Both the position numbers and the translations under genes were made by a program. A stretch of 64,000 nucleotides of DNA from Escherichia phage EC1-UPM: sequence record NC_041906.1. One strand, given 5' to 3'. The notes under the pieces are model-generated. The model was not told the DNA's origin. It saw only the letters and a list, made by a program, of their open reading frames with translations, and did not search any database. Position 1 is the first letter of the stretch; the number at the start of each line of letters is the position of its first letter. Positions 3,281 through 61,755 of the stretch are shown in pieces.

Positions 3281-4456
3281 ATGAACCAATTTCCTCAGCA
3301 CACACTTAGTGATGAACAACTCATGCGTGAATATGACCGTATTCAGGCTAAGGCTTTCCTAGGACGCAGTGCTGCGTTCTTTGGTTCATTGCTGTGTAGT
3401 CTTAAGTTCTCATGGAAACGTGAGGATTGCCCCACTGCATGTACTGATGGGATAGAACTCCATTTCAATCCTGATTTCTTTATCTGGATGTGCCCAGATG
3501 CAAGAGAAACAGTATTAATGCATGAACTCTGGCATGTGGCTTATCTACACGACATCCGTCGTGGAAGCCGAGACCCAGAAGTCTGGAACCAGGCTTGTGA
3601 CCACTTCATTAACCTTCAGTTAGAAGAAGATGGTTACAAGTTCACTGGCATTGATGAAGGCATTTGCAAAGACCCTCAATATAAAGGATGGGTCGAAGAA
3701 GACATCTACGATGACCTGATGAAGAACCCCCAGAAAAGGCAGAAGCCGTCAGGGGGTGCTGGAGCAGGTCTTGCTGGCGACATGAAATCCCCCACTTCGG
3801 GGCAGTCCCAGGGTGCTGTCGTCAACAACGTAGTACGTGCAATGCAGAGCCAGAAAATGGCTGGTGGAACGATGCCTGGTAAGGGTGCTGGTCGTATGGA
3901 AGAGGTTATTACCCAATTCCTTAAACCAGTGGTTCCATGGCAAGAAGTCCTGATGAACTTCTTTACCGACATTGATGACACTCACTATACGTGGGCCAGA
4001 CCTAACCGTCGTTACACTGATATTTATCTACCTTCACTGGAAGATGATGAAGGACGCTTACGACACTTAGCCTACTTTGAGGATGTATCTGGTTCCATCA
4101 GTAGTACTGACTCTCTGCGTTTTAACTCAGAGGTTGCCTACGTTAAGAGCCAGTTCAATCCTAAGAAGATGACCCTAATCACCTTCGACGATGTTATCCA
4201 AGAAGAGATAGACATCACTGAAGAAGATACTTTTGAGGAGATTAAGATTACTGGTCGTGGTGGTACAAACCTGGAACCAGTACGTGATTGGATTATTAAG
4301 AATAAGCCAACCGCTGCAATCATATTCTCTGATATGTATGTTCGTCCAATGGAAGAACTACCATTTGATATCCCAATCATCTGGTGTGTTCTGAATAATC
4401 CTAATGCTACCGTACCTTTTGGGGAGGTAGTTCATATCCCTAAAGGAATGAAATGA
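3281..4456 (+). CDS. HExxH metallopeptidase-like / von Willebrand factor A domain protein
   Basis: HELWH (HExxH) motif in the N-terminal half, Gly/Ala-rich linker, DVSGS (DxSxS MIDAS-like) motif in the C-terminal half; ORF track start 3248 overlaps the upstream gene, ATG at 3281 just after its stop is preferred. Confidence 0.6.
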   Translation: MNQFPQHTLSDEQLMREYDRIQAKAFLGRSAAFFGSLLCSLKFSWKREDCPTACTDGIELHFNPDFFIWMCPDARETVLMHELWHVAYLHDIRRGSRDPEVWNQACDHFINLQLEEDGYKFTGIDEGICKDPQYKGWVEEDIYDDLMKNPQKRQKPSGGAGAGLAGDMKSPTSGQSQGAVVNNVVRAMQSQKMAGGTMPGKGAGRMEEVITQFLKPVVPWQEVLMNFFTDIDDTHYTWARPNRRYTDIYLPSLEDDEGRLRHLAYFEDVSGSISSTDSLRFNSEVAYVKSQFNPKKMTLITFDDVIQEEIDITEEDTFEEIKITGRGGTNLEPVRDWIIKNKPTAAIIFSDMYVRPMEELPFDIPIIWCVLNNPNATVPFGEVVHIPKGMK

Positions 4457-4905
4457 TTATTAACCGCAGTCGTTTATTAGAACTGGCTCCTATAAAGAAC
4501 ATGGTGGACTCTAAGCAAACCTTTAATGGTTTTTCTTGGGGATTAACAGAATGCGGATACGATATTCGTATTAAGCAAGATGTGACCATGTTTTTAGGTC
4601 GTCGTTTCGTGTTGGCTTCTGCCATAGAAGAATTCGATGTACCTCATAACCTAATGGGTCGTGTACTCAATAAGAGTACCTGGGCCAGAAAGGGCATTGA
4701 CGCAAGCATGACTACCAATATCGAACCAGGGTGGGAAGGTTTCCTTACTCTTGAGCTTCGTTATTCGGGTGTTTTGCCTGTTAAAATAAAAGCTGGTACT
4801 GGCATAGCTCAGGTTATCTTCGAAGAGATAGCAGAACATTGTCATTATGAAGGTAAGTACCAGTGTCAACCAAACCAACCAGTAGCTGCTAGAAGCAGTA
4901 AATAA
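4453..4905 (+). CDS. dcd: dCTP deaminase family protein
   Basis: 150 aa; block ...NKSTWARKGIDASMTTNIEPGWEGFLTLELRYSGVLPVKIKAGTGIAQVIFE parallels the conserved core of bacterial dCTP deaminase (dUTPase-fold). Confidence 0.75.
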   Translation: MIINRSRLLELAPIKNMVDSKQTFNGFSWGLTECGYDIRIKQDVTMFLGRRFVLASAIEEFDVPHNLMGRVLNKSTWARKGIDASMTTNIEPGWEGFLTLELRYSGVLPVKIKAGTGIAQVIFEEIAEHCHYEGKYQCQPNQPVAARSSK

Positions 4906-4914
4906 GGGGACAAC

Positions 4915-5124
4915 ATGTCAGTATTTCAAGTAACTCATGCAACCTCAGATGTACGCTTAACCATTAATGCTGCAAATGTAATTGCAGTAGAACAGATTCC
5001 ACAGTCTGACCATGCACGCGTCATATTTGTAGATAATAACTATATAGAAACCAAAGAAACCTATCGTTCAGTACGCAATTACCTGAAGAAAGCTCTTACA
5101 CCTGCAAGCAAAGACTCTGAGTAA
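4915..5124 (+). CDS. hypothetical protein
   Basis: 69-aa ORF followed by a long hairpin (about 5136-5160). Confidence 0.4.
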   Translation: MSVFQVTHATSDVRLTINAANVIAVEQIPQSDHARVIFVDNNYIETKETYRSVRNYLKKALTPASKDSE

Positions 5125-5197
5125 GTAGCTGCCTAAATAGCCCAGCATAGTTGGGCTATTTGTGAAGAAACTAACTCAACCCCACATAGGAACCATC

Positions 5198-5440
5198 ATG
5201 GAATCTTTAGCAGCAATTCTTGTTCTGTTATTTGTATTAGCGGTATACCTTATCCCTACTATCATTGCTTTTGCACGAGGCCATGCCTCTAAGTGGGGCA
5301 TTGGTGTGCTTAATATCGTATTAGGCTGGTCACTGGTATTCTGGGTAGTAGCACTGATTTGGGCACTGTCTAATAAAGGTCAGAGCCAGGTTACAAATGT
5401 AACTGTTGTACAAACCAACGGTGGCAGTAAAGCAGAGTAA
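5198..5440 (+). CDS. superinfection-immunity-like small membrane protein
   Basis: Two TM helices with the pattern LIPTIIAFARGH...GVLNIVLGWSLVFWVVALIWAL typical of small Imm-type membrane proteins; ORF track start 5162 is GTG, ATG at 5198 with AGGAA upstream is preferred. Confidence 0.5.
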   Translation: MESLAAILVLLFVLAVYLIPTIIAFARGHASKWGIGVLNIVLGWSLVFWVVALIWALSNKGQSQVTNVTVVQTNGGSKAE

Positions 5441-5515
5441 CTAATCTAAGCATCATTACATAGTGGTGCTTGTGGAAGTTGCTTCCAGCTCATTGCTTAT
5501 CCATCTCCTAACCCA

Positions 5516-5541
5516 AGCCCACCTAACCCGTGGGCTTTTTT
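5516..5541 (+). terminator. Rho-independent terminator
   Basis: AGCCCAC-loop-GTGGGCT hairpin followed by TTTTTT; coordinates approximate. Confidence 0.55.
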
Positions 5542-5557
5542 AATTACAGGTACTCTT

Positions 5558-5938
5558 ATGACAAACAGACAAAATGGTAAGTCTATCTTGTATGGGCTGG
5601 ACTTAAGTAAACTAGAACAAACTGCAATGCTTGCTTTGGGTAAAACTGTCCATGGCCAAGTGGAGAGTAAAATTGAATTAGATCTTTATGCAACAATTCA
5701 GACTCTTATTCAGAAAAAATGGATTACTAGCAGACCTTTTCCTTCATACATTCCCCCAGAACCTCATCTGAAAGCTAAGGTAGACCGAATCATAGATAAG
5801 TTCTGGCTTAATCCATGTAAGGATGACATGCAACTTTATCTGGCTCAAATACAAAAGAACCCCCGTACTAAGGATGTATTCAAAGGTAAGAGTACTACTC
5901 ACCACTACCCCTGGTATAGAAGAGGTAGTAAATACTAA
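5558..5938 (+). CDS. hypothetical protein
   Basis: 126-aa ORF, start after a terminator, stop overlaps the next start. Confidence 0.45.
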   Translation: MTNRQNGKSILYGLDLSKLEQTAMLALGKTVHGQVESKIELDLYATIQTLIQKKWITSRPFPSYIPPEPHLKAKVDRIIDKFWLNPCKDDMQLYLAQIQKNPRTKDVFKGKSTTHHYPWYRRGSKY

Positions 5939-6381
5939 TGCGTATCCCATTCCTAAGAAAAAGGGAACGAAGCCATGTTCTTTATAAGAAGGACATAGAG
6001 AATGAGTATGAACTCAACCGTAAAGCCCGTTCCTACACAACAAAATTATTTATGGGGACTAAAAACCCTGATAGATTACTGGACTTTGTTTTTGAACAAG
6101 TCTTTATCATATACAGCTTAGCTATGTCTGCTGGTTCACAAGAAGTAAGTGATAAAGCAAGACATGCTCTCTGTATGCTCCGTAAAGAGTATGAAGCCCT
6201 CATGTATAGAGACTTGTACTCCTTTAAAGAAGAAACCGCTGTAGCGTGTTCTGTGGCTCTTACTGAAGGTGTAGCAGTATTACAGGAACTACCTCGTAGT
6301 GAGTTTAAGCTGGTATACGTTCAGGTTAAGAGAATCACAGAGACGAGAAGTGGTATCACCAACTATCTAAGGTCATTCTAA
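5938..6381 (+). CDS. hypothetical protein
   Basis: 147-aa ORF with start/stop overlap on both sides. Confidence 0.45.
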   Translation: MRIPFLRKRERSHVLYKKDIENEYELNRKARSYTTKLFMGTKNPDRLLDFVFEQVFIIYSLAMSAGSQEVSDKARHALCMLRKEYEALMYRDLYSFKEETAVACSVALTEGVAVLQELPRSEFKLVYVQVKRITETRSGITNYLRSF

Positions 6382-7325
6382 TGATTAAGGCATCAGTAAT
6401 TGCAGATTCCGTGCATCCAGAAACAGGAACTCGTATCACAACCTTTGAATTGGTTTATCCCCGATTCATTCACAGTGAGTTTATGACTCACCGTGTATTC
6501 AACCGCAATGCTTCAAGCAGTCGTGCTATTCCTACTTCTAAGCTTATCGAACAGGTTCGTAATGAACCAGTGATGCCAAGTCACTGGGGCAAGAACCAGA
6601 AAGGTATGCAAGCAGACGAAGAACTCACTCCTATGGAAATCGGGGATGCTAAGTTTATCTGGGATAACGCTGCATCTGCTGCTGCTGTGTATGCTGAACA
6701 GCTACGTCGTGGGCAAGTACATAAGCAGATTGTTAACCGTATTCTGGAACCCTTCACGCATATCCGTGTAGTGGTAACTTCAACAAGCTGGGCTAATTTC
6801 TATGGACTTCGTGACCACAAAGATGCACAACCAGAAATTCGTGAACTGGCTCAGGCAATGCGTAAGGCACACGAAGAAAGTGTTCCATCTAAACTCATAC
6901 AAGGACATTGGCATTTGCCGTATATCACTGCTAATGACCGTTTTGCTGCTTACGATTTCTGCAAACACAATCGAATTACACGCGATGAACCAAGTGGTGC
7001 AGAAGTGTATGGCTTACTTCTCAAAGTAAGTGCTGCACGCTGTGCCCGTGCTTCCTATAACAACTTTGAAGGACGTCCCTCTACCATTGAAGAAGACCTT
7101 GGCTTATTTGCTAAGTTAGTGGAAAACCAACCTATTCACGCTTCGCCAACGGAGCATCAGGCTACACCTATGAACCTTGGTGAGAAATACGTGAATAACA
7201 TGAACCCAGTTACATGGGAACAAGGTGTTACATCTATGGATAAAGAAGGGAATCTGTACTCAGGTAACCTGCTCCACTTTATCCAATTCCGTAAGTTAAT
7301 CCCAGGTGAGACTATTACTGAATGA
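6381..7325 (+). CDS. thyX: flavin-dependent thymidylate synthase (ThyX-like)
   Basis: 314 aa; THRVFNRNASSSR resembles the ThyX RHRxxxxxxxS signature; sits beside dCTP deaminase; assignment by motif only. Confidence 0.55.
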   Translation: MIKASVIADSVHPETGTRITTFELVYPRFIHSEFMTHRVFNRNASSSRAIPTSKLIEQVRNEPVMPSHWGKNQKGMQADEELTPMEIGDAKFIWDNAASAAAVYAEQLRRGQVHKQIVNRILEPFTHIRVVVTSTSWANFYGLRDHKDAQPEIRELAQAMRKAHEESVPSKLIQGHWHLPYITANDRFAAYDFCKHNRITRDEPSGAEVYGLLLKVSAARCARASYNNFEGRPSTIEEDLGLFAKLVENQPIHASPTEHQATPMNLGEKYVNNMNPVTWEQGVTSMDKEGNLYSGNLLHFIQFRKLIPGETITE

Positions 7326-7561
7326 ATAAACTAGCTCTGTACGCAATGCTAATTAGTGCCTTACTCACACTGACCTACGCATACAAAGTCGCCTTTGTGG
7401 TAGAAACAGATATGCAGTTCATTCGAGCCAGTATTCTGTTCTTTGTAAGCGAAATTGGCTTATGGTGTGTCTACTACTTTGCTCGTGACTACGAAGCCAT
7501 TCGTGAGCAAGAAGAAATGAAAAAACAAATGATACGATTTGTAGAACAAAATCGTAAATAA
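7322..7561 (+). CDS. small membrane protein
   Basis: 79 aa with two hydrophobic helices; followed by a terminator. Confidence 0.45.
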   Translation: MNKLALYAMLISALLTLTYAYKVAFVVETDMQFIRASILFFVSEIGLWCVYYFARDYEAIREQEEMKKQMIRFVEQNRK

Positions 7562-39629: not shown

Positions 39630-39714
39630 ACTTATATCGTATAAGAAGATTCACTGTACAGTAAGTGAATGTAAGAGAAAAGCCCCGGATGGGGCTTTAT
39701 TAGTATGTAAGATT

Positions 39715-46344: not shown

Positions 46345-46411
46345 ATTTCCTGTGGTTCGTTTAGTTTTATTAAGAGGGGGACTTATGTCCCCCTTGTTTT
46401 ATTTCGGACTA

Positions 46412-53188: not shown

Positions 53189-53387
53189 AATATTACCGTA
53201 GTTGTGTAGTTAGTATTCCCGATAGGGCCATATCATAAGATGACTCTTAGATAATACTTAGTATGATGGGATACATCCAGACATAGTGGATGGTATTCAA
53301 CTGTGTATGTTTAACATATCCGGGCAAGTAATCACCCTAACAGCAGTATCGGTTAGGGTAATGCAAACAATAAACTCTATATAAGAA

Positions 53388-53406
53388 AAGGCCCAAACTG
53401 GGCCTT
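53388..53406 (-). terminator. Rho-independent terminator downstream of the 704-aa tailspike gene
   Basis: AAGGCCCA-aac-TGGGCCTT hairpin; on the - strand it is followed by a T-run; coordinates approximate. Confidence 0.5.
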
Positions 53407-53414
53407 AGTTTTAA

Positions 53415-55529
53415 TTAAATCAATCCGTAAACTACATTATGTATTACGACACCGCCAACAACAGAGGAAACATTAAAATTAATTTCAGCTTTGTAGGCTC
53501 CTTGTGGAACGCAATCAACCAAAGCATAAAAGTTGAACGTGTTTACCACTGGGATGATATATCCTATGGAATCCGCAACAGCATTTCCTTGCTGGTCCAG
53601 GAATCTAATTGACGCCAGGGTGGTTGTTGTATTTTTAGCCCAAAAGCCAAGCTGAAAATAACGACCCGGCTCACAATCAATGATTGTTTGAGTGAAGTTA
53701 GCTGCTGCATCTGCTGATGGTACAGATAAAACAAAAGAAGTTGTAAACATTAAATCATTAGGAACATCGTTTGCTGTAGTAGCAGTGACAGCACCTGTTC
53801 CAGTTTGCGAGAGTGTCCAGTTAGATGTATTTACAAACTGTCCTGAGCCATTACTAATACTATTAATATATGGGCTTACAATGCTCCCTAGACTCCAGTT
53901 AGTTGTAATAAATCCTGCACGAGGGAAGCACCCCCTGGACATTACTTTTTTACTTGCACCGCCTATCAACTGTCTTGTGGCAAATCCAGTAGCAATCGTT
54001 GTGTTACCGTAGAGAGGTAATGAGCAGTTATTTAAACTAACTACCCCGTCACCATTACTAACAATAGGCACTGTACTGTAGCCTTCCGGAAGCAAAATTG
54101 TAGAATCTTTAATACTGAGGCGTGAGCTTCCGCTTACAGTAAAGCCTACAAAGCTCTGCCCAGGTTGATACTCAATATTACCGTTAGCAAATACTAGGGT
54201 AGCATTATCACTTAATGCCACTACTGGATCAAAGTAGCCTGCCTTTTTACCTGCTGGTAATGAGCATGAATCAAAGATGAACTGCCCATTCTCAAAAGTA
54301 AATGGACCCCCATTATCAACCATCCAGCAGTGATTGAATTTTATAACCTCACCAGCATTAGCCGGGGAATTAAAGATTACAGAGTTAGTAAAACTGCGAG
54401 AAATAGTGCACTTATCAAACAGGATACGGTATGCATTATCTTTAAACTCAATACCAGCGGTAGATATAAACCCACAGTTAGCTATACGTAATTCTGCTAT
54501 CCCCCCTCCAGTACTACTGCCCAAACACATCTTTCGGGTACCTTTACCTACAAAGGAAATACCTGTTAATAGGGCAGTAGCATTAATGGCATCACGAGCT
54601 GTGTAATCCGTGTTAGAGTTGATTACGGTTAAGTAATACTCTCCTGTTACACCTTCCACTTCCGTAAGGGTACACTTATTGGCTCCTACTAAAGCCCCCT
54701 TAGCTACATCCAGTAAGATAGGTGTACTAATAGTCCCTGATGTAGGTACAAGACAATCGTAACCGGCAGAGTTTACTTTGTTAATGAACGGAGCAATGTC
54801 TCCCGTACCAGTATAACCTGCATCATATACCGTAGCAGTGCCATCAAAGAACTTACGCTTCCAGACCACACCTGCACCGGTGAAAGTTACAACTTCATCT
54901 ACAGGAGTAGTATTAGGAACCGCAATCATAATACCCCCACCAACGGAAGAGCCTGAGTATGAATCTAGCATTACACTAGACCCTACTGTTGCTCCGATAG
55001 AGGCCAGGGCAGTTACGTCAGGTACACTACCAATCAAGGTCATACCATCCTGAGATGCCAACTGAGCACGCAAAATAGGACCCGTTTGAGACTTCCAGTC
55101 CGTGTTGCCAACAGGGTTGGTCCCTTCAACAATAGTTACAGGTAGAGAACCTAAGTAGGTATAACCAATACCATTATGCATCAAAAGCTCATTTCGAGTA
55201 TTTACTACTAAGCCCGTAGTAAATGATTCAGATAAGCATACAAACTCCCTACGTGCAGCAGCCAGTTCACCTAAATCAACTGTACCTGCTGAATGAACCA
55301 GGACTGCCTGCTCACTGAGACTTACAGCAATGGTTCCTACTGGAAGTACAGGCAATGAGTAAGCACGTTGAGTAGCCTTATCATAAATTACTTTGTATCC
55401 ACCTAAATCTACTCCTACAGAAAAGTAGACTACTTCATTCTGCTTAACACCAAACTTACGGGCAATGGCTTGTTTATTGGTAAGAATACCAGTGGAGCCT
55501 TTACCACCTTGAGAGAACATTTCGTTCAT
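53415..55529 (-). CDS. tailspike-like protein with predicted parallel beta-helix (polysaccharide depolymerase candidate)
   Basis: 704 aa, Gly/Ser/Thr/Asn-rich repetitive strands (e.g. NCGFISTAGIEFKDNAYRILFDKCTISRSFTNSVIFNS); N-terminal ~60 aa resemble an internal segment of the adjacent 930-aa protein. Confidence 0.55.
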   Translation of the reverse strand: MNEMFSQGGKGSTGILTNKQAIARKFGVKQNEVVYFSVGVDLGGYKVIYDKATQRAYSLPVLPVGTIAVSLSEQAVLVHSAGTVDLGELAAARREFVCLSESFTTGLVVNTRNELLMHNGIGYTYLGSLPVTIVEGTNPVGNTDWKSQTGPILRAQLASQDGMTLIGSVPDVTALASIGATVGSSVMLDSYSGSSVGGGIMIAVPNTTPVDEVVTFTGAGVVWKRKFFDGTATVYDAGYTGTGDIAPFINKVNSAGYDCLVPTSGTISTPILLDVAKGALVGANKCTLTEVEGVTGEYYLTVINSNTDYTARDAINATALLTGISFVGKGTRKMCLGSSTGGGIAELRIANCGFISTAGIEFKDNAYRILFDKCTISRSFTNSVIFNSPANAGEVIKFNHCWMVDNGGPFTFENGQFIFDSCSLPAGKKAGYFDPVVALSDNATLVFANGNIEYQPGQSFVGFTVSGSSRLSIKDSTILLPEGYSTVPIVSNGDGVVSLNNCSLPLYGNTTIATGFATRQLIGGASKKVMSRGCFPRAGFITTNWSLGSIVSPYINSISNGSGQFVNTSNWTLSQTGTGAVTATTANDVPNDLMFTTSFVLSVPSADAAANFTQTIIDCEPGRYFQLGFWAKNTTTTLASIRFLDQQGNAVADSIGYIIPVVNTFNFYALVDCVPQGAYKAEINFNVSSVVGGVVIHNVVYGLI

Positions 55530-55551
55530 AAGTACCTCTTTGTTTTTCTAG

Positions 55552-55575
55552 AAAACCCCGCCGAAGCGGGGTTTT
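55552..55575 (-). terminator. Rho-independent terminator/attenuator between the two tailspike genes
   Basis: AAAACCCCGC-ttcg-GCGGGGTTTT perfect hairpin; on the - strand it lies ~240 nt after the 930-aa gene stop and ~25 nt before the 704-aa gene start codon. Confidence 0.55.
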
Positions 55576-55812
55576 ACTGTTGTTGTTGTTATACTGTTCC
55601 AGCAACATCAGGAGGAGTTTGCCTACTAGCGTAAACTGTTGTGTTTCCTGTTGGCGTTGCTTTTCCTGATCCATCTGTATACCAGCAGTATATCCTCACA
55701 ACCAGACCAATTCTAACCTGCGTAAAGAATTTGGTTCTATCGTTAACTGGTTCTAAAGTAACAGTTACTTGCTTATTACCTCGAAACGGAAACTGCTAAA
55801 CAGGCCTGTTAC

Positions 55813-58605
55813 TTAGATCTCTTTAACAATCAAAACCAATTCCGCAGCTGTTATACCAGCGGCGCCAGTATTGCCTAAAGTAGCCATGATGTTAACAGTG
55901 TTACCTGATACAGAGCTAGTTAACGTACATGTCCCTGCATTGGTGCTAGTTCCCGCATCACCCGCCACTGAACTCTCTGAATATTCCAGTATGTTAACAC
56001 GCGCCGCTCCAGAAGTTTTAGCTGCTAGAACGCTGGCCCTCTTCATTAGTAGACCTGCACCGTTGCCCGTTTTATTTTTGCAAACCAACTGCATATCGTA
56101 TGCAGCCTGTGAATAATTGGGGATTGTAAAACTGAATATCGTGGTAGCAACTCCGACCGAAAGGTTAGTGATCGAGCGCCTGCCTGTATCGTTAACTTCC
56201 ACTGCTGACGGTACACCCGCACCAAGTGTTAAACTCAGAGACTGAATTTCCGTAGCGGTACCAACTTTGCCGTCAAATATGATTTCAATCACATCACCGG
56301 CATCAGCTTTGAAGGTGGTCGTACTAAACCCACTATGTTCAATGAGGTCATATGTCCTGCCTCCTCCTTTTGTTGTATTAGCTATTGCTGTAGATTCCAG
56401 GCCAGCCCCTGTTTCCTTTAAGTTTGCAGAAATTGTCCACTCACCACTACAAGGCAACGGTAAAGAGAGAATTCTTATGATCTCTTCGCCAGCAACTGTC
56501 CGTTTAAATCTTGGAAGGTAACTAAGTGAGCCAGCTGGAATGTACCGACTATTCTTTATGCCGCCAGACTGCATTCCGATATTTGCAGTTGGTGTCGTGT
56601 AAGGTCGAGCATCTCTTGCAGGAACCCTTGCCCCTACAACGTCAAACGTAGTTACTTCGTTGGAGCCATCAGCAAACCATTTAGAGCCGGAATCAATAAA
56701 GCCACCAACCCAAACGACAGCCCACGTGATATGAGGGTCTACTACCTTAAAGACAGCAGTATAACTGGCGTCACATCCAATAAAGGTGGTTCCTGAGAAA
56801 ACAGCTTTGTGATTTGGCGTCTCGTAGAAATAAAAAATTGCTTCATCCGTATCTAAGCGCCTGCGCAACTCACAACTGTCGAACACGTTGCTATTAAAGT
56901 TGGCGCTGTCAATGTCAGTTTTTGCATACATGCCCGCGAAGCGGCATTCGTTAAATTTGTTCCAGTAAATGGAGTAAGTTGCCCGCCCTAATTCTTCCCA
57001 GCGTCCAAACCTTGTGGCACCGAAATCAATATCTGAAAACGTGCAGTTCCGCACATCCATAAGCGTTACATATTCACTTACAGAGAATTTCAAACCGGAT
57101 GCTTTTACTTTGCGCCATCCCAGTAATGTAACTGAGTTGCCAGTAATAATGGCGCCGTTACCGTGGACAACCGAAACTTGTTGCTCACCGTAGGCGCTCT
57201 TATCCAAAGTCAAATCAGTTACTTTGTAAGTTCCTGCTGGTATAAAAATAGAAGCACATGTTGCGAATGCTTTTTGAAAAGCCGCAGTATCGTCATTTAC
57301 ACCGTCACCAACCGCGCCAAAATCTTTAACACTAACCATCTCAGCATTCTTATCATGCTGAGTTCGAACAACGGAACCAGTGAATGGTTGCTTTACTGTA
57401 AGAAGATTATCACCCAGCTCTAAATCCTCAGATGCTAAGTCTGCTCTTAGAGCAATCCCAGAATTAGGCACAGGAACCAAATCAACAGTAATATTCCCAG
57501 GAGAATATGTTAACTGCCCATTAGATACTGAGTTGATATAAATGTTAGAAGGCAACGCCGGTAATCCATATGCCTTCTGCTCACTGATAGAATAAATAAC
57601 CTTTTTACCATTCAGTAATTGGGTAGTATCAGTACTAAGAATTACCTCACTATCTTTGACGTTAGTAGCACGGGCAACTTCCTGAAGAGTATGGTCTGAT
57701 GATTCCAGCACCTGCACTTCACCGCCAATCTGTACGATTAATCGGTCATTGGTTGCCAGTGGCTCAGTAAGAAGGATACGTTGGTTATCTGGGTCAGCAG
57801 TATATGACTCAGTAGTTAATCCTTTATACAAACGAAGCCCATTCTTATACACAGCAGGAACGGACTGGAAGGTATAAGGAATTGCAATAACCTGCTCACC
57901 GCCTACAGCAGCCCCATTGTTGTATAACCAGTTAATCTGAACCCAGTCATTAACATTAGGGTTATCTGGTACAGCAGGAACCCCAGTCAGAAGGAATACT
58001 ACTTCATCACCTTCTTCCAGAGGCTGAGCCAGGGTTACGGACAGACTATCTGCGTTAAATTCAAAGCCACGGCCTACATACTGCATGTCCCCATTAATAA
58101 TAATGAAAGGCACACCTACAGTACCATCTGGTACATTAATGGAAGTTTCACCACCAGTAGCAGAACCATTGCTGTATACCCAAGGGATATATGCACCTTC
58201 ACCAGAGTAAGTACCACCACTAGAAGAACCAGAAGTAGCAACAGTAATCCATGAACCAGTTGCTTCTGGGTCATCTGGGGTAATGCCAGTACGGTCACCC
58301 TCTACATAAAGGTAGTCAGTAACCTGACGGTCACCTGCACGAGAGAAGCCATAGATACGTGCATACTTAGCTTTGGTAGTTAAAGCTTTAAGTTCTGCTT
58401 CAGACTGTACACCAAGAACCATCCCATACTGGTTCAGGAAATCATAGATAAGTTTAAGATTGCCTAAGTTACAGTAGACAGTACGAACCACATGGTAAGC
58501 ATTACCAAGTAGTGCATCTACCATTGGGTCATTGGAACTGTTCTGACAGTAAGGATTAGACCAATCCTTCTTTGCATCAAAGGGGGTATGTGCGTTCATC
58601 GCCAT
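55813..58605 (-). CDS. tail fiber/tailspike protein with pectate-lyase-like beta-helix domain
   Basis: 930 aa; motif VSVKDFGAVGDGVNDDTAAFQKAF typical of pectate-lyase-superfamily beta-helix enzymes; shares a ~45-aa segment with the 704-aa protein. Confidence 0.6.
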   Translation of the reverse strand: MAMNAHTPFDAKKDWSNPYCQNSSNDPMVDALLGNAYHVVRTVYCNLGNLKLIYDFLNQYGMVLGVQSEAELKALTTKAKYARIYGFSRAGDRQVTDYLYVEGDRTGITPDDPEATGSWITVATSGSSSGGTYSGEGAYIPWVYSNGSATGGETSINVPDGTVGVPFIIINGDMQYVGRGFEFNADSLSVTLAQPLEEGDEVVFLLTGVPAVPDNPNVNDWVQINWLYNNGAAVGGEQVIAIPYTFQSVPAVYKNGLRLYKGLTTESYTADPDNQRILLTEPLATNDRLIVQIGGEVQVLESSDHTLQEVARATNVKDSEVILSTDTTQLLNGKKVIYSISEQKAYGLPALPSNIYINSVSNGQLTYSPGNITVDLVPVPNSGIALRADLASEDLELGDNLLTVKQPFTGSVVRTQHDKNAEMVSVKDFGAVGDGVNDDTAAFQKAFATCASIFIPAGTYKVTDLTLDKSAYGEQQVSVVHGNGAIITGNSVTLLGWRKVKASGLKFSVSEYVTLMDVRNCTFSDIDFGATRFGRWEELGRATYSIYWNKFNECRFAGMYAKTDIDSANFNSNVFDSCELRRRLDTDEAIFYFYETPNHKAVFSGTTFIGCDASYTAVFKVVDPHITWAVVWVGGFIDSGSKWFADGSNEVTTFDVVGARVPARDARPYTTPTANIGMQSGGIKNSRYIPAGSLSYLPRFKRTVAGEEIIRILSLPLPCSGEWTISANLKETGAGLESTAIANTTKGGGRTYDLIEHSGFSTTTFKADAGDVIEIIFDGKVGTATEIQSLSLTLGAGVPSAVEVNDTGRRSITNLSVGVATTIFSFTIPNYSQAAYDMQLVCKNKTGNGAGLLMKRASVLAAKTSGAARVNILEYSESSVAGDAGTSTNAGTCTLTSSVSGNTVNIMATLGNTGAAGITAAELVLIVKEI

Positions 58606-59306
58606 CCTCGTTGTTCAAATTTAGTTTCGGTAATTGAAATACTTCCATTAGCTAGGTCGTAATCAACAACCTCACCACAGATGCTTTCATACGTTTGCAG
58701 ATACTCTGCTGCCTTAGCATTAGCTTCAGGAGTATTCAAACCAGTATGGTAACGATAACCCACCCAGTTATGAAGTGCTGTCATTAGTGTGTCTGCTAAG
58801 TCAACTTCCTGTTCTTCATCACCCGTAAGCACTGGGTGCTTAGCTTGATAAGTTACGTTAAGTGCCTCGAAGTGTCGAGGACGCATACACTGAATAGTAT
58901 CCGGTCTTGGAGTAAAGATTGCATGAGGGTCTGAGTCGTCGTTAAGTCTACGTCGATTCCCCGAGGTATCAAACACATTTAAGATTTTAATAACGTCATC
59001 CTGGAAAGGTTTCATGAACCCATCCATGATATAAGGATATTGAACCTCAAGAGTAGGCTTAGTAAATCTGGAGTAAGCATACTTAGATTGGAGAGGATAA
59101 TCAGTACGACCTTCTTTCATTTCCACAATACAACTATTAGTCCTAAGAGGGAAACGACTATGCAGACGTACCAGCCCCTCATTAATAGCAGCTAATATCT
59201 CAGGCTTACTATCTGGTTCAATATCTAATCTGTCATCAGTGACTGCACCAGTACCCTTTAAGGTACTTAGTGCCAAGCCACGATATACTTCCGATAATTT
59301 TTGCAT
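58596..59306 (-). CDS. virion-associated protein (N4 gp67-like position)
   Basis: 236-aa ORF between terminase and tail fiber genes. Confidence 0.45.
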   Translation of the reverse strand: MQKLSEVYRGLALSTLKGTGAVTDDRLDIEPDSKPEILAAINEGLVRLHSRFPLRTNSCIVEMKEGRTDYPLQSKYAYSRFTKPTLEVQYPYIMDGFMKPFQDDVIKILNVFDTSGNRRRLNDDSDPHAIFTPRPDTIQCMRPRHFEALNVTYQAKHPVLTGDEEQEVDLADTLMTALHNWVGYRYHTGLNTPEANAKAAEYLQTYESICGEVVDYDLANGSISITETKFEQRGWR

Positions 59307-61584: not shown

Positions 61585-61755
61585 ACTTATCTCGCTACAA
61601 AGTTATGTCTATTAAAGAAGATTCTTTTCTTGGGGTGAGTTACCCCTTGAAGAAACGATATCATACAGTTACACTTTAGTCATGATATAGAAAAAGTTCA
61701 TGATACTATATAGTATGTAATGTTCCGATGACCCTATTCCCAAAAGGAGTAACCT
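61585..61755. promoter_or_regulatory. divergent intergenic control region between the late (-) operon and the early (+) small-gene array
   Basis: 171 nt AT-rich non-coding DNA with a GGGGT-gagtt-ACCCC hairpin and direct repeats of TCATGATA; genes diverge from both sides. Confidence 0.35.

What the first reader, a model, noticed from the sequence alone, without database searches (positions are those of the whole stretch)
53189..55812. Tailspike gene insulated by terminators and sharing a module with the neighbouring tail fiber
The 704-aa beta-helix protein gene (53415-55529) has a perfect 10-bp hairpin terminator ~25 nt upstream of its start codon and another terminator just after its stop, with unusually long intergenic spacers (226 and 283 nt). 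Its residues ~18-63 (AIARKFGVKQNEVVYFSVGVDLGGYKVIYDKATQRAYSLPVLP) resemble residues ~308-352 of the 930-aa pectate-lyase-like protein (EVARATNVKDSEVILSTDTTQLLNGKKVIYSISEQKAYGLPALP). This looks like an exchangeable receptor-binding cassette whose expression depends on read-through of an attenuator, and whose N-terminal module may dock onto the other fiber.
Basis: partly seen in the sequence, partly recalled or inferred. Interest (0 to 1): 0.55.

Follow-up and report, generated by a model that had tools for sequence, protein, structure and literature searches.

The report
Swappable phage tailspike gene, known design
This is the second tailspike gene of the published coliphage EC1-UPM, an already described two-spike host-recognition design in which terminator-like hairpins mark the swap points, and its two long "spacers" are leftovers of older genes.

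Summary
The window is Escherichia phage EC1-UPM, a G7C-like N4-like podovirus that infects E. coli O78:K80. The 930-aa ORF is 928/928 identical to its published tail fiber.

The 704-aa protein is the secondary (gp63.1/TSP-type) tailspike. It has a conserved N-terminal peptide, a D1-D2 "head", and a body 80% identical to the O78-cleaving CBA120 TSP4. The 930-aa protein is the primary (gp66-type) fibre: anchor, two T4 gp10-like domains (XD2, XD3), D1, then a rare beta-helix body.

- **Shared segment:** it is the D1 head domain, common to this whole tailspike superfamily.
- **Docking:** attachment of the secondary spike to XD3 of the primary one is already shown for G7C, CBA120 and Shigella phage B2.
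- **Hairpins:** they are the standard element at tailspike gene borders in Gamaleya- and Kutterviruses, and homology with relatives breaks inside them. This has been published.
- **Upstream 283-nt spacer (new detail):** it holds a 68-codon relic of an older receptor-binding domain.
- **Downstream 226-nt spacer (new detail):** it holds an internally deleted opposite-strand ORF.

Read-through of the upstream hairpin is required by the layout. Regulated attenuation is not supported.

The parts
55813..58605 (-). Primary receptor-binding protein (gp66 type, 930 aa; annotated as the 928-aa 'tail fiber' of EC1-UPM). Approximate domains: virion anchor residues 1-135 (58201-58605); XD2 residues 139-207 (57985-58191); XD3 residues 223-297 (57715-57939); D1 head residues 305-385 (57451-57693); beta-helix receptor-binding body residues 386-930 (55816-57450).
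   Evidence: It is 928/928 identical to the EC1-UPM tail fiber. Residues 1-396 score 520 bits against Moo19 gp82 (9d80), and residues 17-385 score 480 bits against B2 gp49 (9d83). Residues 139-386 match 6w4q and residues 91-210 match CBA120 TSP4-N (7rej). Pfam Pect-lyase_RHGA_epim matches residues 424-463. DNA homology to other Gamaleyaviruses stops at about 57460-57535.
55589..55795 (-). Pseudogene relic: the last 68 codons plus the TAA stop of an older tailspike receptor-binding domain (Kuttervirus SJ2 ORF152 type). It has no start codon and lies in a different frame from the 930-aa ORF. It makes up most of the 283-nt 'spacer'.
   Evidence: tblastn gives 60% identity over 99% of the peptide, E = 2e-20, and the match ends exactly at the SJ2 ORF152 stop codon. 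The same relic in contig L054 carries a premature stop, a 1-nt deletion and a lost stop codon.
55552..55575 (-). Upstream terminator-like hairpin: 10-bp perfect stem, UUCG loop, tail UUUUCUAG when the stem is read as the 6-bp GC core. It is the 3' border of the upstream receptor-binding module.
   Evidence: describe the hairpin. Homology with L054 ends at 55556, and homology with Bp4, PE007, G7C and PhAPEC5/7 ends at 55566-55574. Identical 21-24-nt copies follow other tailspike genes in SJ2, L011, L043, L048 and pSb-1.
55530..55551 (-). Conserved 5' leader CTAGAAAAACAAAGAGGTACTT, with a Shine-Dalgarno GAGG 6 nt (ACTT plus one T) before the ATG.
   Evidence: TAGAAAAACAA(A/T)GAGGT is invariant in 16 junctions from Gamaleyaviruses and from Ackermannviridae-size contigs. 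It occurs once in the window.
53415..55529 (-). Secondary tailspike (gp63.1/TSP type, 704 aa). Approximate domains: N-terminal conserved peptide residues 1-19 (55473-55529); D1 residues 20-95 (55245-55472); D2 residues 96-170 (55020-55244); neck plus beta-helix body plus C-terminal domain residues 171-704 (53418-55019). Predicted O78 O-antigen depolymerase.
   Evidence: Residues 20-704 score 1132 bits against CBA120 TSP4 (5w6h). Residues 1-173 match TSP1 (4oj5), residues 1-228 match G7C gp63.1 (4qnl) and residues 1-171 match B2 gp48 (9d84). The body is 97.6-97.9% identical to Bp4, ECBP1 and PE007, and 80% identical to CBA120 orf213 and to many phages isolated on O78 hosts.
53388..53406 (.). 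Downstream bidirectional terminator-like hairpin (8-bp stem, 3-nt loop). It is shared by the minus-strand tailspike gene and the converging plus-strand mini-ORF.
   Evidence: It is flagged on both strands. Homology with PhAPEC5/7 starts at 53406. The flank 53282-53413 is 88% identical to the DNA downstream of a tailspike gene in Ackermannviridae phage PC3.
53286..53384 (+). Mini-ORF (GTG plus 31 further codons): an in-frame internal-deletion remnant of a 217-aa plus-strand gene that is intact in Bp4 (orf14, PHROG 17779, function unknown). With the promoter-like site at 53240-53267 (+), it accounts for much of the 226-nt 'spacer'.
   Evidence: It reads VDGIQLCMFNISGQVITLTAVSVRVMQTINSI* against the Bp4 orf14 C-terminus ...VDGIQLGMFNLSGQVITLTAVSVEVMQTVNSI*. 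blastn places a 535-nt insertion/deletion at 53282-53302. The PHROG hit is and the promoter-like site.
58596..59306 (-). gp67-type tail adaptor gene immediately upstream. It overlaps the start of the 930-aa gene, which puts both in one tightly packed late gene block.
   Evidence: Pfam SU10_adaptor, 28.1 bits against a cut-off of 27. It is syntenic with gp67 of G7C and its equivalents in Bp4 and PhAPEC5/7.

Best explanation
The locus is the two-component, branched host-recognition module of phage EC1-UPM, a Gamaleyavirus (G7C-like N4-like podovirus).

**The two proteins**
- The 930-aa protein is the primary fibre. Its N-terminus anchors it to the tail. Two T4 gp10-like jelly-roll domains (XD2, XD3) follow, then its own D1 head domain, then a rare beta-helix body.
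- The 704-aa protein is the secondary tailspike. Its invariant N-terminal peptide plus D1-D2 head attach it to XD3 of the primary fibre. This is inferred from homologous complexes.
- The body of the 704-aa protein cuts the O78 O-antigen. This is inferred from 80% identity to CBA120 TSP4 and from the O78:K80 host.

**The shared segment**
The segment the two proteins share is simply the D1 head domain found in all tailspikes of this superfamily.

**The hairpins**
- The GC-rich hairpins are the terminator-type stem-loops that sit at every tailspike gene border in Gamaleya- and Kutterviruses.
- The downstream hairpin is a bidirectional terminator that closes two converging transcription units.
- The upstream hairpin lies inside the late transcription unit. 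The host RNA polymerase must read through it for the tailspike to be made, so it can be at most a partial terminator. This is an inference.
- The same hairpins, together with the conserved leader and head-coding DNA and the conserved 3' flank, act as the borders or homology arms where receptor-binding modules are exchanged between phages, including across families. The mosaic breakpoints show this.

**The long spacers**
Both are scars. The 283-nt spacer holds the last 68 codons of a displaced receptor-binding domain, which now travels with the new domain and the hairpin as one 1.8-kb block. The 226-nt spacer holds an internally deleted opposite-strand gene.
For: - **Identity of the phage:** the 930-aa ORF is 928/928 identical to the EC1-UPM tail fiber. 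The host is E. coli O78:K80 (PMC3853248). The gene order is syntenic with G7C, Bp4, PhAPEC5/7 and ECBP1.
- **Domain assignments:** they come from the PDB hits and the PHROG hits.
- **D1 is common to the superfamily:** D1/D2 are described as homologous in all CBA120 tailspikes. TSP1 D1 binds TSP4 XD3, and gp63.1 needs gp66 XD3 (PMC8825819; PMC13352976). The B2 gp48/gp49 complex has been purified and solved (PMC11654681).
- **O78 specificity:** CBA120 TSP4 cleaves O78 (PMC10408124), and the same body occurs in phages isolated on O78 hosts.
- **Junction architecture:** all 16 junctions show stop codon, hairpin, invariant leader, then ATGAACGA. They use about four different stem sequences. The covariation score is 0.168 against 0.090 in shuffles, with 0 of 500 shuffles reaching it.
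- **Breakpoints at the hairpins:**
- **Cassette arms across families:** PC3 (Ackermannviridae) shares both arms at 85-88% identity but carries a different body.
- **Relics:** for the upstream relic; for the downstream one.
- **Read-through:** no sigma-70-like site was found on the coding strand in 55530-55812. In the related N4-like phage LUZ7, more than 60% of mapped terminators let substantial transcription through (PMC9163698).
Against: - No transcript data exist for this phage, so termination and read-through at either hairpin are unmeasured.
- N4-type late promoters are poorly defined, and a consensus scan could miss one inside the relic.
- The docking, the O78 specificity and any K80 role for the 930-aa body all rest on homology, not on assays of these proteins.
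- Covariation in the hairpin comes from few independent stem types. Related sequences can exceed shuffles without any structural constraint, so the statistics are only moderately strong.
Confidence: 0.85

Rival explanations
1. Regulated attenuator. The upstream hairpin would be a conditional terminator whose read-through is tuned, by an antiterminator structure or a factor, to control the tailspike dose or its timing relative to the primary fibre.
For: A hairpin sits at a fixed distance (about 26-28 nt from the GC core to the ATG) in all 16 junctions despite differing stem sequences. It is annotated as a terminator by ARNold in PhAPEC5. Some LUZ7 terminators change their read-through level during infection (PMC9163698).
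Against: Folding the whole 291-nt region keeps the hairpin in both the MFE and the centroid structure, with no competing pairing. The sequence 5' of the hairpin is the variable 3' end of a swappable module, or here a pseudogene, so no conserved antiterminator can exist. There is no leader peptide. The two proteins form a stoichiometric complex, so strong attenuation would be counter-productive.
Confidence: 0.1
2. Dedicated recombination signal. The hairpins would be primarily DNA-level elements, either targets of a homing-type nuclease or barriers to Holliday-junction migration, that actively promote module exchange. Any transcriptional effect would be secondary.
For: Every homology tract examined ends within the roughly 24 bp of a hairpin. 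Identical copies of the 24-nt hairpin follow different tailspike genes in several phages. G7C gene 63.1 is flanked by the same 16-mer on both sides. The idea has been proposed in bioRxiv 10.1101/542787 and PMC10408124.
Against: Stem sequences differ between phages, which argues against a sequence-specific nuclease. Borders at gene ends are also expected from selection alone, because only recombinants with intact genes survive. The relic shows that one earlier exchange did not use the hairpin as its right-hand junction. No nuclease gene is adjacent.
Confidence: 0.15
3. mRNA processing and stability element. The hairpin would protect the 3' end of the upstream fibre mRNA, or the 5' end of the tailspike mRNA, after cleavage in the A-rich leader. 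This would give the two genes independent mRNA lifetimes rather than terminating transcription.
For: The U-tract is short (UUUUCUAG), and weaker still in some relatives (CUUACUAG, CUUACUUAG). The invariant single-stranded A-rich leader next to a stable stem is a plausible RNase E context; that judgement rests on general knowledge.
Against: There is no direct evidence. Hairpins of the same kind at the ends of transcription units (53388-53406; after SJ2 ORF153) look like ordinary terminators with good U-tracts.
Confidence: 0.2
4. The 283-nt spacer encodes a small RNA (RsmY/CsrB-like CsrA sponge, or an Hfq-binding sRNA) that ends at the hairpin.
For: Rfam reports a sub-threshold full-length RsmY match at 55552-55674 (-), 28.3 bits, E = 3e-4 for the 3.2-kb search, and an istR match at 26.1 bits. 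There are five GGA motifs in 125 nt (P = 0.045, chosen post hoc).
Against: The score is half the gathering threshold of 57 bits and comes almost entirely from the terminator, which is identical to the RsmY terminator. The model's first helix is not formed. GGA is not enriched over the whole spacer (P = 0.54), and the GGA motifs are buried in a predicted long stem. The region is demonstrably a decaying coding relic.
Confidence: 0.03

Closest known systems
G7C gp66-gp63.1 branched tailspike complex (Prokhorov et al. 2017, Mol Microbiol 105:385; Gamaleyavirus)
   Same: The genus, gene order and positions are the same. The primary fibre has the anchor plus XD2/XD3. The secondary spike has the identical N-terminal 21 residues and a D1-D2 head. 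A terminator-like hairpin with the same 16-mer CCCCGCTTCGGCGGGG lies between the two genes.
   Different: Both receptor-binding bodies differ. G7C gp63.1 is an O-antigen deacetylase, whereas here the body is a TSP4-type O78 depolymerase. The gp66 body here is a rare pectate-lyase-like domain. The G7C spacer is 47 nt against 283 nt here, because of the relic.
CBA120 (Kuttervirus) TSP1-4 branched complex (Plattner et al. 2019; PMC8825819)
   Same: The D1/D2 head and XD2/XD3 domains are homologous. The body of the 704-aa protein is 80% identical to TSP4. The unit of TSP2-type gene, hairpin, TAGAAAAACAAAGAGGT leader and MNE(M/L)FSQGG gene is the same in Kuttervirus SJ2.
   Different: CBA120 is a myovirus with four spikes in three layers, whereas here there is a podovirus tail with two. 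The TSP4-type body here sits on a TSP1/TSP3-type N-terminus with no XD domains.
Conserved motifs and terminator as recombination hotspots around receptor-binding domains (Pas et al. 2023, PMC10408124), and the terminator-like stem-loop that limits g66 swaps in the G7C set (bioRxiv 10.1101/542787; Kulikov et al. 2012)
   Same: [quoted passage not shown]
   Different: This locus adds a case in which a 68-codon relic of the displaced domain lies between the new stop codon and the hairpin. The whole block (body, relic, hairpin) is 95% identical in an unrelated myovirus-type contig. Neither point appeared in the passages of those papers that I searched.
Shigella phage B2 gp48/gp49 complex and Moo19 gp82 (PMC11654681; PDB 9d80-9d84)
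   Same: These are the closest solved structures for the N-terminal 385-396 residues of the 930-aa protein and for the head of the 704-aa protein. The B2 complex was co-purified and solved.
   Different: B2 gp49 is a bare adaptor of 410 aa with no body, like ECBP1_0073. The B2 and Moo19 spikes are esterases.

Membership tests
G7C/CBA120-type branched receptor-binding complex | The primary protein has a tail anchor followed by T4 gp10-like XD2/XD3 branching domains | tested here: met
   Residues 1-396 of the 930-aa protein score 520 bits against Moo19 gp82, and residues 17-385 score 480 bits against B2 gp49. Residues 91-210 match CBA120 TSP4-N (7rej). The two jelly-roll copies are visible at residues 139-207 and 223-297.
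G7C/CBA120-type branched receptor-binding complex | The secondary protein has the conserved N-terminal peptide and a D1(-D2) head | tested here: met
   Residues 1-173 of the 704-aa protein score 188 bits against TSP1 (4oj5), and residues 1-228 score 186 bits against G7C gp63.1 (4qnl). The first 21 residues are identical in all three.
G7C/CBA120-type branched receptor-binding complex | Adjacent genes in the order adaptor, primary, then secondary | tested here: met
G7C/CBA120-type branched receptor-binding complex | Physical binding of the secondary spike to XD3 of the primary fibre | not testable with these tools
   This is shown only for homologues (PMC8825819, PMC11654681, PMC13352976).
CBA120 TSP4-type O78 O-antigen depolymerase subtype | The receptor-binding domain falls within the published subtype identity thresholds (at least 30% in PMC10408124; more than 75% in the Kuttervirus subtype study cited in its discussion) | tested here: met
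   80.2% identity over residues 172-704 to CBA120 orf213; 1132 bits against 5w6h.
CBA120 TSP4-type O78 O-antigen depolymerase subtype | The phage infects a host of that serogroup | tested here: met
   The window protein is identical to an EC1-UPM protein, and EC1-UPM infects E. coli O78:K80 (PMC3853248).
CBA120 TSP4-type O78 O-antigen depolymerase subtype | Cleavage of O78 polysaccharide by the protein | not testable with these tools
   An enzyme assay is needed.
Intrinsic (Rho-independent) terminator | A GC-rich stem-loop immediately followed by a U-tract on the transcribed strand | tested here: met
   The downstream hairpin 53406-53388 (-) has 8 pairs and is followed by TTTTCTTA. It also qualifies on the plus strand.
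Intrinsic (Rho-independent) terminator | The same feature, for the upstream hairpin 55575-55552 (-) | tested here: inconclusive
   The stem is excellent (-17.9 kcal/mol). The scan flags it only on the plus strand. On the coding strand the Us are either part of the 10-bp stem or, with a 6-bp core stem, form the short tract UUUUCUAG. Relatives range from UUUUUUUAG to CUUACUAG.
Intrinsic (Rho-independent) terminator | Transcript 3' ends form there in vivo | not testable with these tools
   No RNA data are available.
Transcription attenuator (regulated read-through) | An alternative (antiterminator) structure, leader peptide or conserved sensor 5' of the terminator | tested here: not met
   The hairpin persists in the MFE and centroid folds of the 291-nt region. 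The 5' flank is unrelated in every relative and is a pseudogene here.
RsmY/CsrB-type sRNA (Rfam RF00195, clan CL00106) | Reaches the Rfam gathering score; GGA motifs exposed in loops | tested here: not met
   28.3 bits against 57, with the match carried by the terminator. GGA is not enriched overall and is predicted to be paired.

The most novel reading that the evidence does not exclude
The unit of hairpin plus invariant 22-nt leader, shared almost unchanged by a podovirus family (Schitoviridae) and a myovirus family (Ackermannviridae), could be an active cassette-exchange site rather than a passive gene border. That would mean a structure-specific recombination hotspot, formed by cruciform or stem-loop extrusion and processed by a phage or host nuclease, that snaps receptor-binding modules into place. 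The 1.8-kb block of body, relic and hairpin moving between unrelated phages would then be a footprint of it.
Probability: 0.12. Interest if true: 0.55.

Novelty: already known. Interest (0 to 1): 0.2.

Why it matters
The locus is a clean, fully sequenced example of how lytic phages re-target themselves. Conserved attachment heads and terminator-type hairpins frame swappable enzyme bodies, here across two virus families.

For phage engineering it gives concrete splice points: the leader and D1-D2 coding DNA on one side, and the hairpin with about 110 nt of 3' flank on the other. For EC1-UPM, a therapy candidate against avian E. coli O78:K80, it assigns O78 recognition to the 704-aa spike. The rare 930-aa body is left as the candidate for a second receptor, possibly the K80 capsule; that last point is speculation.

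The two relics are a reminder that long intergenic regions in phage host-range loci are often recombination or deletion scars rather than regulatory DNA.

Tried and rejected
1. **sRNA in the 283-nt spacer.** The Rfam RsmY and istR hits are sub-threshold and driven by the terminator, and GGA is not enriched. Rejected.
2. **The 57-aa minus-strand ORF (55501-55674) and the 52-aa plus-strand ORF (55641-55799) as real genes.** Neither has a ribosome-binding site. The first runs through the hairpin and overlaps the tailspike start, and the region is explained by the relic. Rejected.
3. **Frameshifted continuation.** I asked whether the relic is simply the end of a frameshifted 930-aa gene. It is not. 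The 930-aa body is unrelated to SJ2 ORF152 beyond about residue 463, and the full ORF with its stop is 93-95% conserved in L054.
4. **DNA relatives of window 55575-57460.** None were found in the phage records, in 5,426 E. coli genomes, or by peptide-pattern scans of IMG/VR, GTDB genomes and JGI metagenomes. Only the large protein search found EC1-UPM itself and the Logan contig L054.
5. **Exact-protein look-ups.** Look-ups of both window proteins and of P0001 in the assembly index found nothing.
6. **Literature search by PDB codes 9D80-9D84.** It returned only noise. The entries were traced through a topic search instead.
7. **Promoter in the spacer or at the head of the late gene block.** The sigma-70 consensus scan found no coding-strand site. 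This is uninformative for N4-type late promoters.
8. **N4 virion-RNA-polymerase hairpin promoter.** From memory, those have 3-nt loops, conserved flanking bases and an early-region location, whereas these loops are mostly 4 nt and lie in the late region. I did not pursue it.


Full report
**1. Observation**

All the stated features are present. The 704-aa ORF (53415-55529) and the 930-aa ORF (55813-58605) are both on the minus strand, and the spacers are 226 nt and 283 nt.

The upstream hairpin (55552-55575) has a perfect 10-bp stem and a UUCG loop. It ends 22 nt before the ATG and folds at -17.9 kcal/mol, z = -3.9. The downstream hairpin (53388-53406) has an 8-bp stem and starts 8 nt after the stop codon. 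It is followed by TTTTCTT and qualifies as terminator-like on both strands.

Perfect GC-rich hairpins are rare in the window. There are about 13 in 64 kb, and about five lie between late genes. Two of them flanking one gene is therefore a real pattern.

The protein similarity is significant. BLASTP gives 40% identity over about 70 residues, E = 7e-7. It is corroborated by hits of both stretches to the same profile positions of PHROG 36390.

**2. What the window is**

DNA matches place the region in the genus Gamaleyavirus (G7C-like N4-like podoviruses). It has the same gene order as G7C, Bp4, ECBP1 and PhAPEC5/7.

The 930-aa ORF is 928/928 identical to the "tail fiber protein" of Escherichia phage EC1-UPM. 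That phage is published and was isolated on avian pathogenic E. coli O78:K80. Its authors already noted the unique C-terminus of this protein (PMC3853248). The passages of that paper I searched do not mention terminators or intergenic regions.

**3. The two proteins**

*The 704-aa protein.* It aligns from residue 1 with CBA120 TSP1 (4oj5), G7C gp63.1 (4qnl) and Shigella phage B2 gp48 (9d84). The first 21 residues are identical to those of TSP1 and gp63.1. From residue 20 to the end it aligns with CBA120 TSP4 (5w6h, 1132 bits). Its body (residues 171-704) shows these identities:
- 97.6-97.9% to Bp4, ECBP1 and PE007;
- 88% to PhAPEC7 and 87.4% to PhAPEC5;
- 80% to CBA120 orf213.

The same body recurs in phages of several other genera isolated on O78 hosts. 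CBA120 TSP4 cleaves the O78 antigen (PMC10408124). The inference is an O78-specific depolymerase.

*The 930-aa protein.* Residues 1-396 match Moo19 gp82 (520 bits) and residues 17-385 match B2 gp49 (480 bits). Residues 139-386 match 6w4q, and residues 91-210 match the XD region of CBA120 TSP4-N. It therefore reads as an anchor, then two jelly-roll XD domains (about residues 139-207 and 223-297), then D1 (about 305-385), then a beta-helix body with a Pfam Pect-lyase match at residues 424-463.

**4. The shared module and docking**

The shared stretch is the D1 head domain. The literature describes D1/D2 as homologous in sequence and structure across the CBA120 spikes, with TSP2-type proteins carrying D1 only. 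This explains why the similarity here stops after about 70 residues (PMC8825819).

Docking is established for the homologues:
- G7C gp63.1 requires the XD3 domain of gp66.
- The D1 domain of CBA120 TSP1 binds TSP4 XD3.
- B2 gp48/gp49 was co-purified and solved.

However, the partner surface on the 930-aa protein is XD3, not its copy of D1. The N-terminal 19 residues have no counterpart in the 930-aa protein and are invariant across families. They are a plausible extra docking peptide, by analogy with the KP32-type systems. That is inference.

**5. The hairpins are the standard junction element**

In 16 distinct junctions, from Gamaleyaviruses and from 149-161-kb Ackermannviridae-size contigs, the layout is the same: stop codon, a GC hairpin shortly after it (5 nt in G7C), a short pyrimidine-rich tail, the invariant TAGAAAAACAA(A/T)GAGGT, 4 nt, then ATGAACGA. 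Kuttervirus SJ2 shows it between its TSP2-type ORF152 and the next spike gene.

The stem sequences differ: CCCCGC/GCGGGG, CCCCTC/GAGGGG, GGGTCAC/GTGACCC and CTGCC/GGCAG. All of them fold. Pair counting gives a covariation score of 0.168 against 0.090 in shuffles, with 0 of 500 shuffles reaching it and the best value at zero slide. This is moderate evidence, because there are few independent stem types.

Exact 21-24-nt copies of the window's hairpin follow other spike genes in SJ2, L011, L043, L048 and pSb-1. G7C has the same 16-mer on both sides of gene 63.1.

This element was noted in G7C by Kulikov et al. 2012. It has been discussed as the left limit of g66 swaps (bioRxiv 10.1101/542787) and described as a conserved terminator and recombination motif across genera (PMC10408124).

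**6. Mosaic borders**

- Coming from the tailspike side, homology with Bp4, PE007, G7C and PhAPEC5/7 ends at 55566-55574, and with ECBP1 at 55550.
- Coming from the other side, a Logan contig with a myovirus-type baseplate and RecT/YqaJ genes (L054) is 95% identical from 57365 to 55556.
- The two tracts meet inside the hairpin.
- Downstream, homology with PhAPEC5/7 begins at 53406, the edge of the second hairpin.
- Phage PC3 (Ackermannviridae) shares both arms of the cassette but has an unrelated body between them. The arms are 55069-55550 (leader plus head coding, 85% identical) and 53282-413 (hairpin plus 3' flank, 88% identical).

This is direct evidence for cassette exchange across families.

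**7. Both long spacers are relics**

*Upstream.* Frame -2 of 55795-55592 is open for 68 codons and ends in TAA, 13 nt before the hairpin. Its translation matches the last 68 residues of SJ2 ORF152 at 60% identity, E = 2e-20, ending exactly at that gene's stop codon. At the DNA level the window is collinear with SJ2 from the relic through the hairpin and leader into the next gene.

In L054 the same relic has a premature stop, a 1-nt deletion and a lost stop codon, so it is decaying. An older SJ2-type body was therefore replaced by the present one. The new body brought its own stop codon, and the right-hand junction fell about 200 nt short of the old gene end. The composite of body, relic and hairpin then moved between unrelated phages.

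*Downstream.* A plus-strand mini-ORF (53286-53384) is the start codon of a 217-aa gene fused in frame to that gene's last 31 codons. The gene is intact in Bp4 (orf14, PHROG 17779, function unknown). The C-terminal stretch is 27/31 identical.

A promoter-like site lies just upstream on the plus strand. The hairpin serves as the shared terminator of the two converging units. The short form of this spacer is conserved at 86-87% in ECBP1, PE007, PD205 and ZQ2.

**8. Expression logic (inference)**

From the terminase gene through the adaptor gene to the 930-aa gene, the genes overlap or abut. No coding-strand sigma-70-like site was found in the 283-nt spacer, which is in any case a pseudogene. In relatives the whole spacer is only 47-49 nt and is filled by the hairpin and leader.

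The tailspike mRNA must therefore include, or read through, the hairpin. In G7C the orthologous spike is essential; I recall this from Prokhorov et al. 2017, which I did not read here. The hairpin can thus be at most a partial terminator.

This matches an N4-like phage in which terminators were mapped: more than 60% of them allow substantial read-through (PMC9163698). I found no alternative structure and no conserved 5' element, so regulated attenuation is unsupported.

**9. Verdict**

This is a correct and careful observation of biology that is already described, in a phage that is already published. The incremental points are the two relics and the 1.8-kb block shared with a myovirus-type contig. 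They explain the odd spacing and add one well-resolved example to the published idea that hairpins mark module borders. Interest is low.

Noticed in passing
window 55556-57365: The receptor-binding body of the 930-aa fibre, the relic and the hairpin form one block that is 95% identical to Logan contig SRR14520557_138 (L054 3988-5787). In that contig it is the C-terminal part of a 755-aa spike, inside a myovirus-type baseplate cluster next to RecT/YqaJ genes. No other close relative was found in the phage, E. coli, IMG/VR, GTDB or JGI collections.
   Followed up: partly
window 53240-53406 (+): The site holds a promoter-like sequence (53240-53267), a 32-aa remnant ORF (53286-53384) and a bidirectional terminator. 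It is an emptied slot for a plus-strand gene of unknown function that is intact in Bp4 (orf14, PHROG 17779). The two-piece matches in pSb-1, the UE phages, 'nithesis' and others suggest the same insertion there. Some of those records label features under the match 'tail needle knob'.
   Followed up: partly
window 53331-53362: A second inverted repeat (ATCACCCTAAC / GTTAGGGTAAT, 10 nt apart) lies inside the downstream spacer and within the remnant ORF. Bp4 and ECBP1 show near-identical sequence at this position. Its function is unknown.
   Followed up: no
window 55552-55674 (-): There is a sub-threshold full-length Rfam match to RsmY (28.3 bits; gathering score 57). It arises because the hairpin is identical to the RsmY terminator consensus (CCCCGCUUCGGCGGGG).
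   Followed up: yes
window 28743-28766, 39679-39698, 46375-46394: Three other strong intergenic hairpins lie in the late region. Two flank the 3618-aa virion RNA polymerase gene, and one sits just downstream of the 400-aa major capsid gene. None of them has a clear U-tract on the coding strand.
   Followed up: no
window 61650-61725 (-): The divergent intergenic region at the head of the late gene block contains repeated TAT(A/G)xATCATGA-like motifs (TATAGTATCATGA, CTATATCATGA, TGTATGATATCG). No sigma-70 consensus match was found on the late strand. This may be relevant to N4-type late promoters.
   Followed up: no
L005 (ECBP1) 4297-5424 and L001 (Bp4) 4834-7556: Relatives carry different versions of the primary fibre. 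ECBP1 has only a 375-aa adaptor-like version (like B2 gp49). Bp4 has a 600-aa ORF followed by a separate 304-aa ORF annotated with a tailspike-like N-terminus. Loss or splitting of the primary body therefore seems to be tolerated.
   Followed up: no
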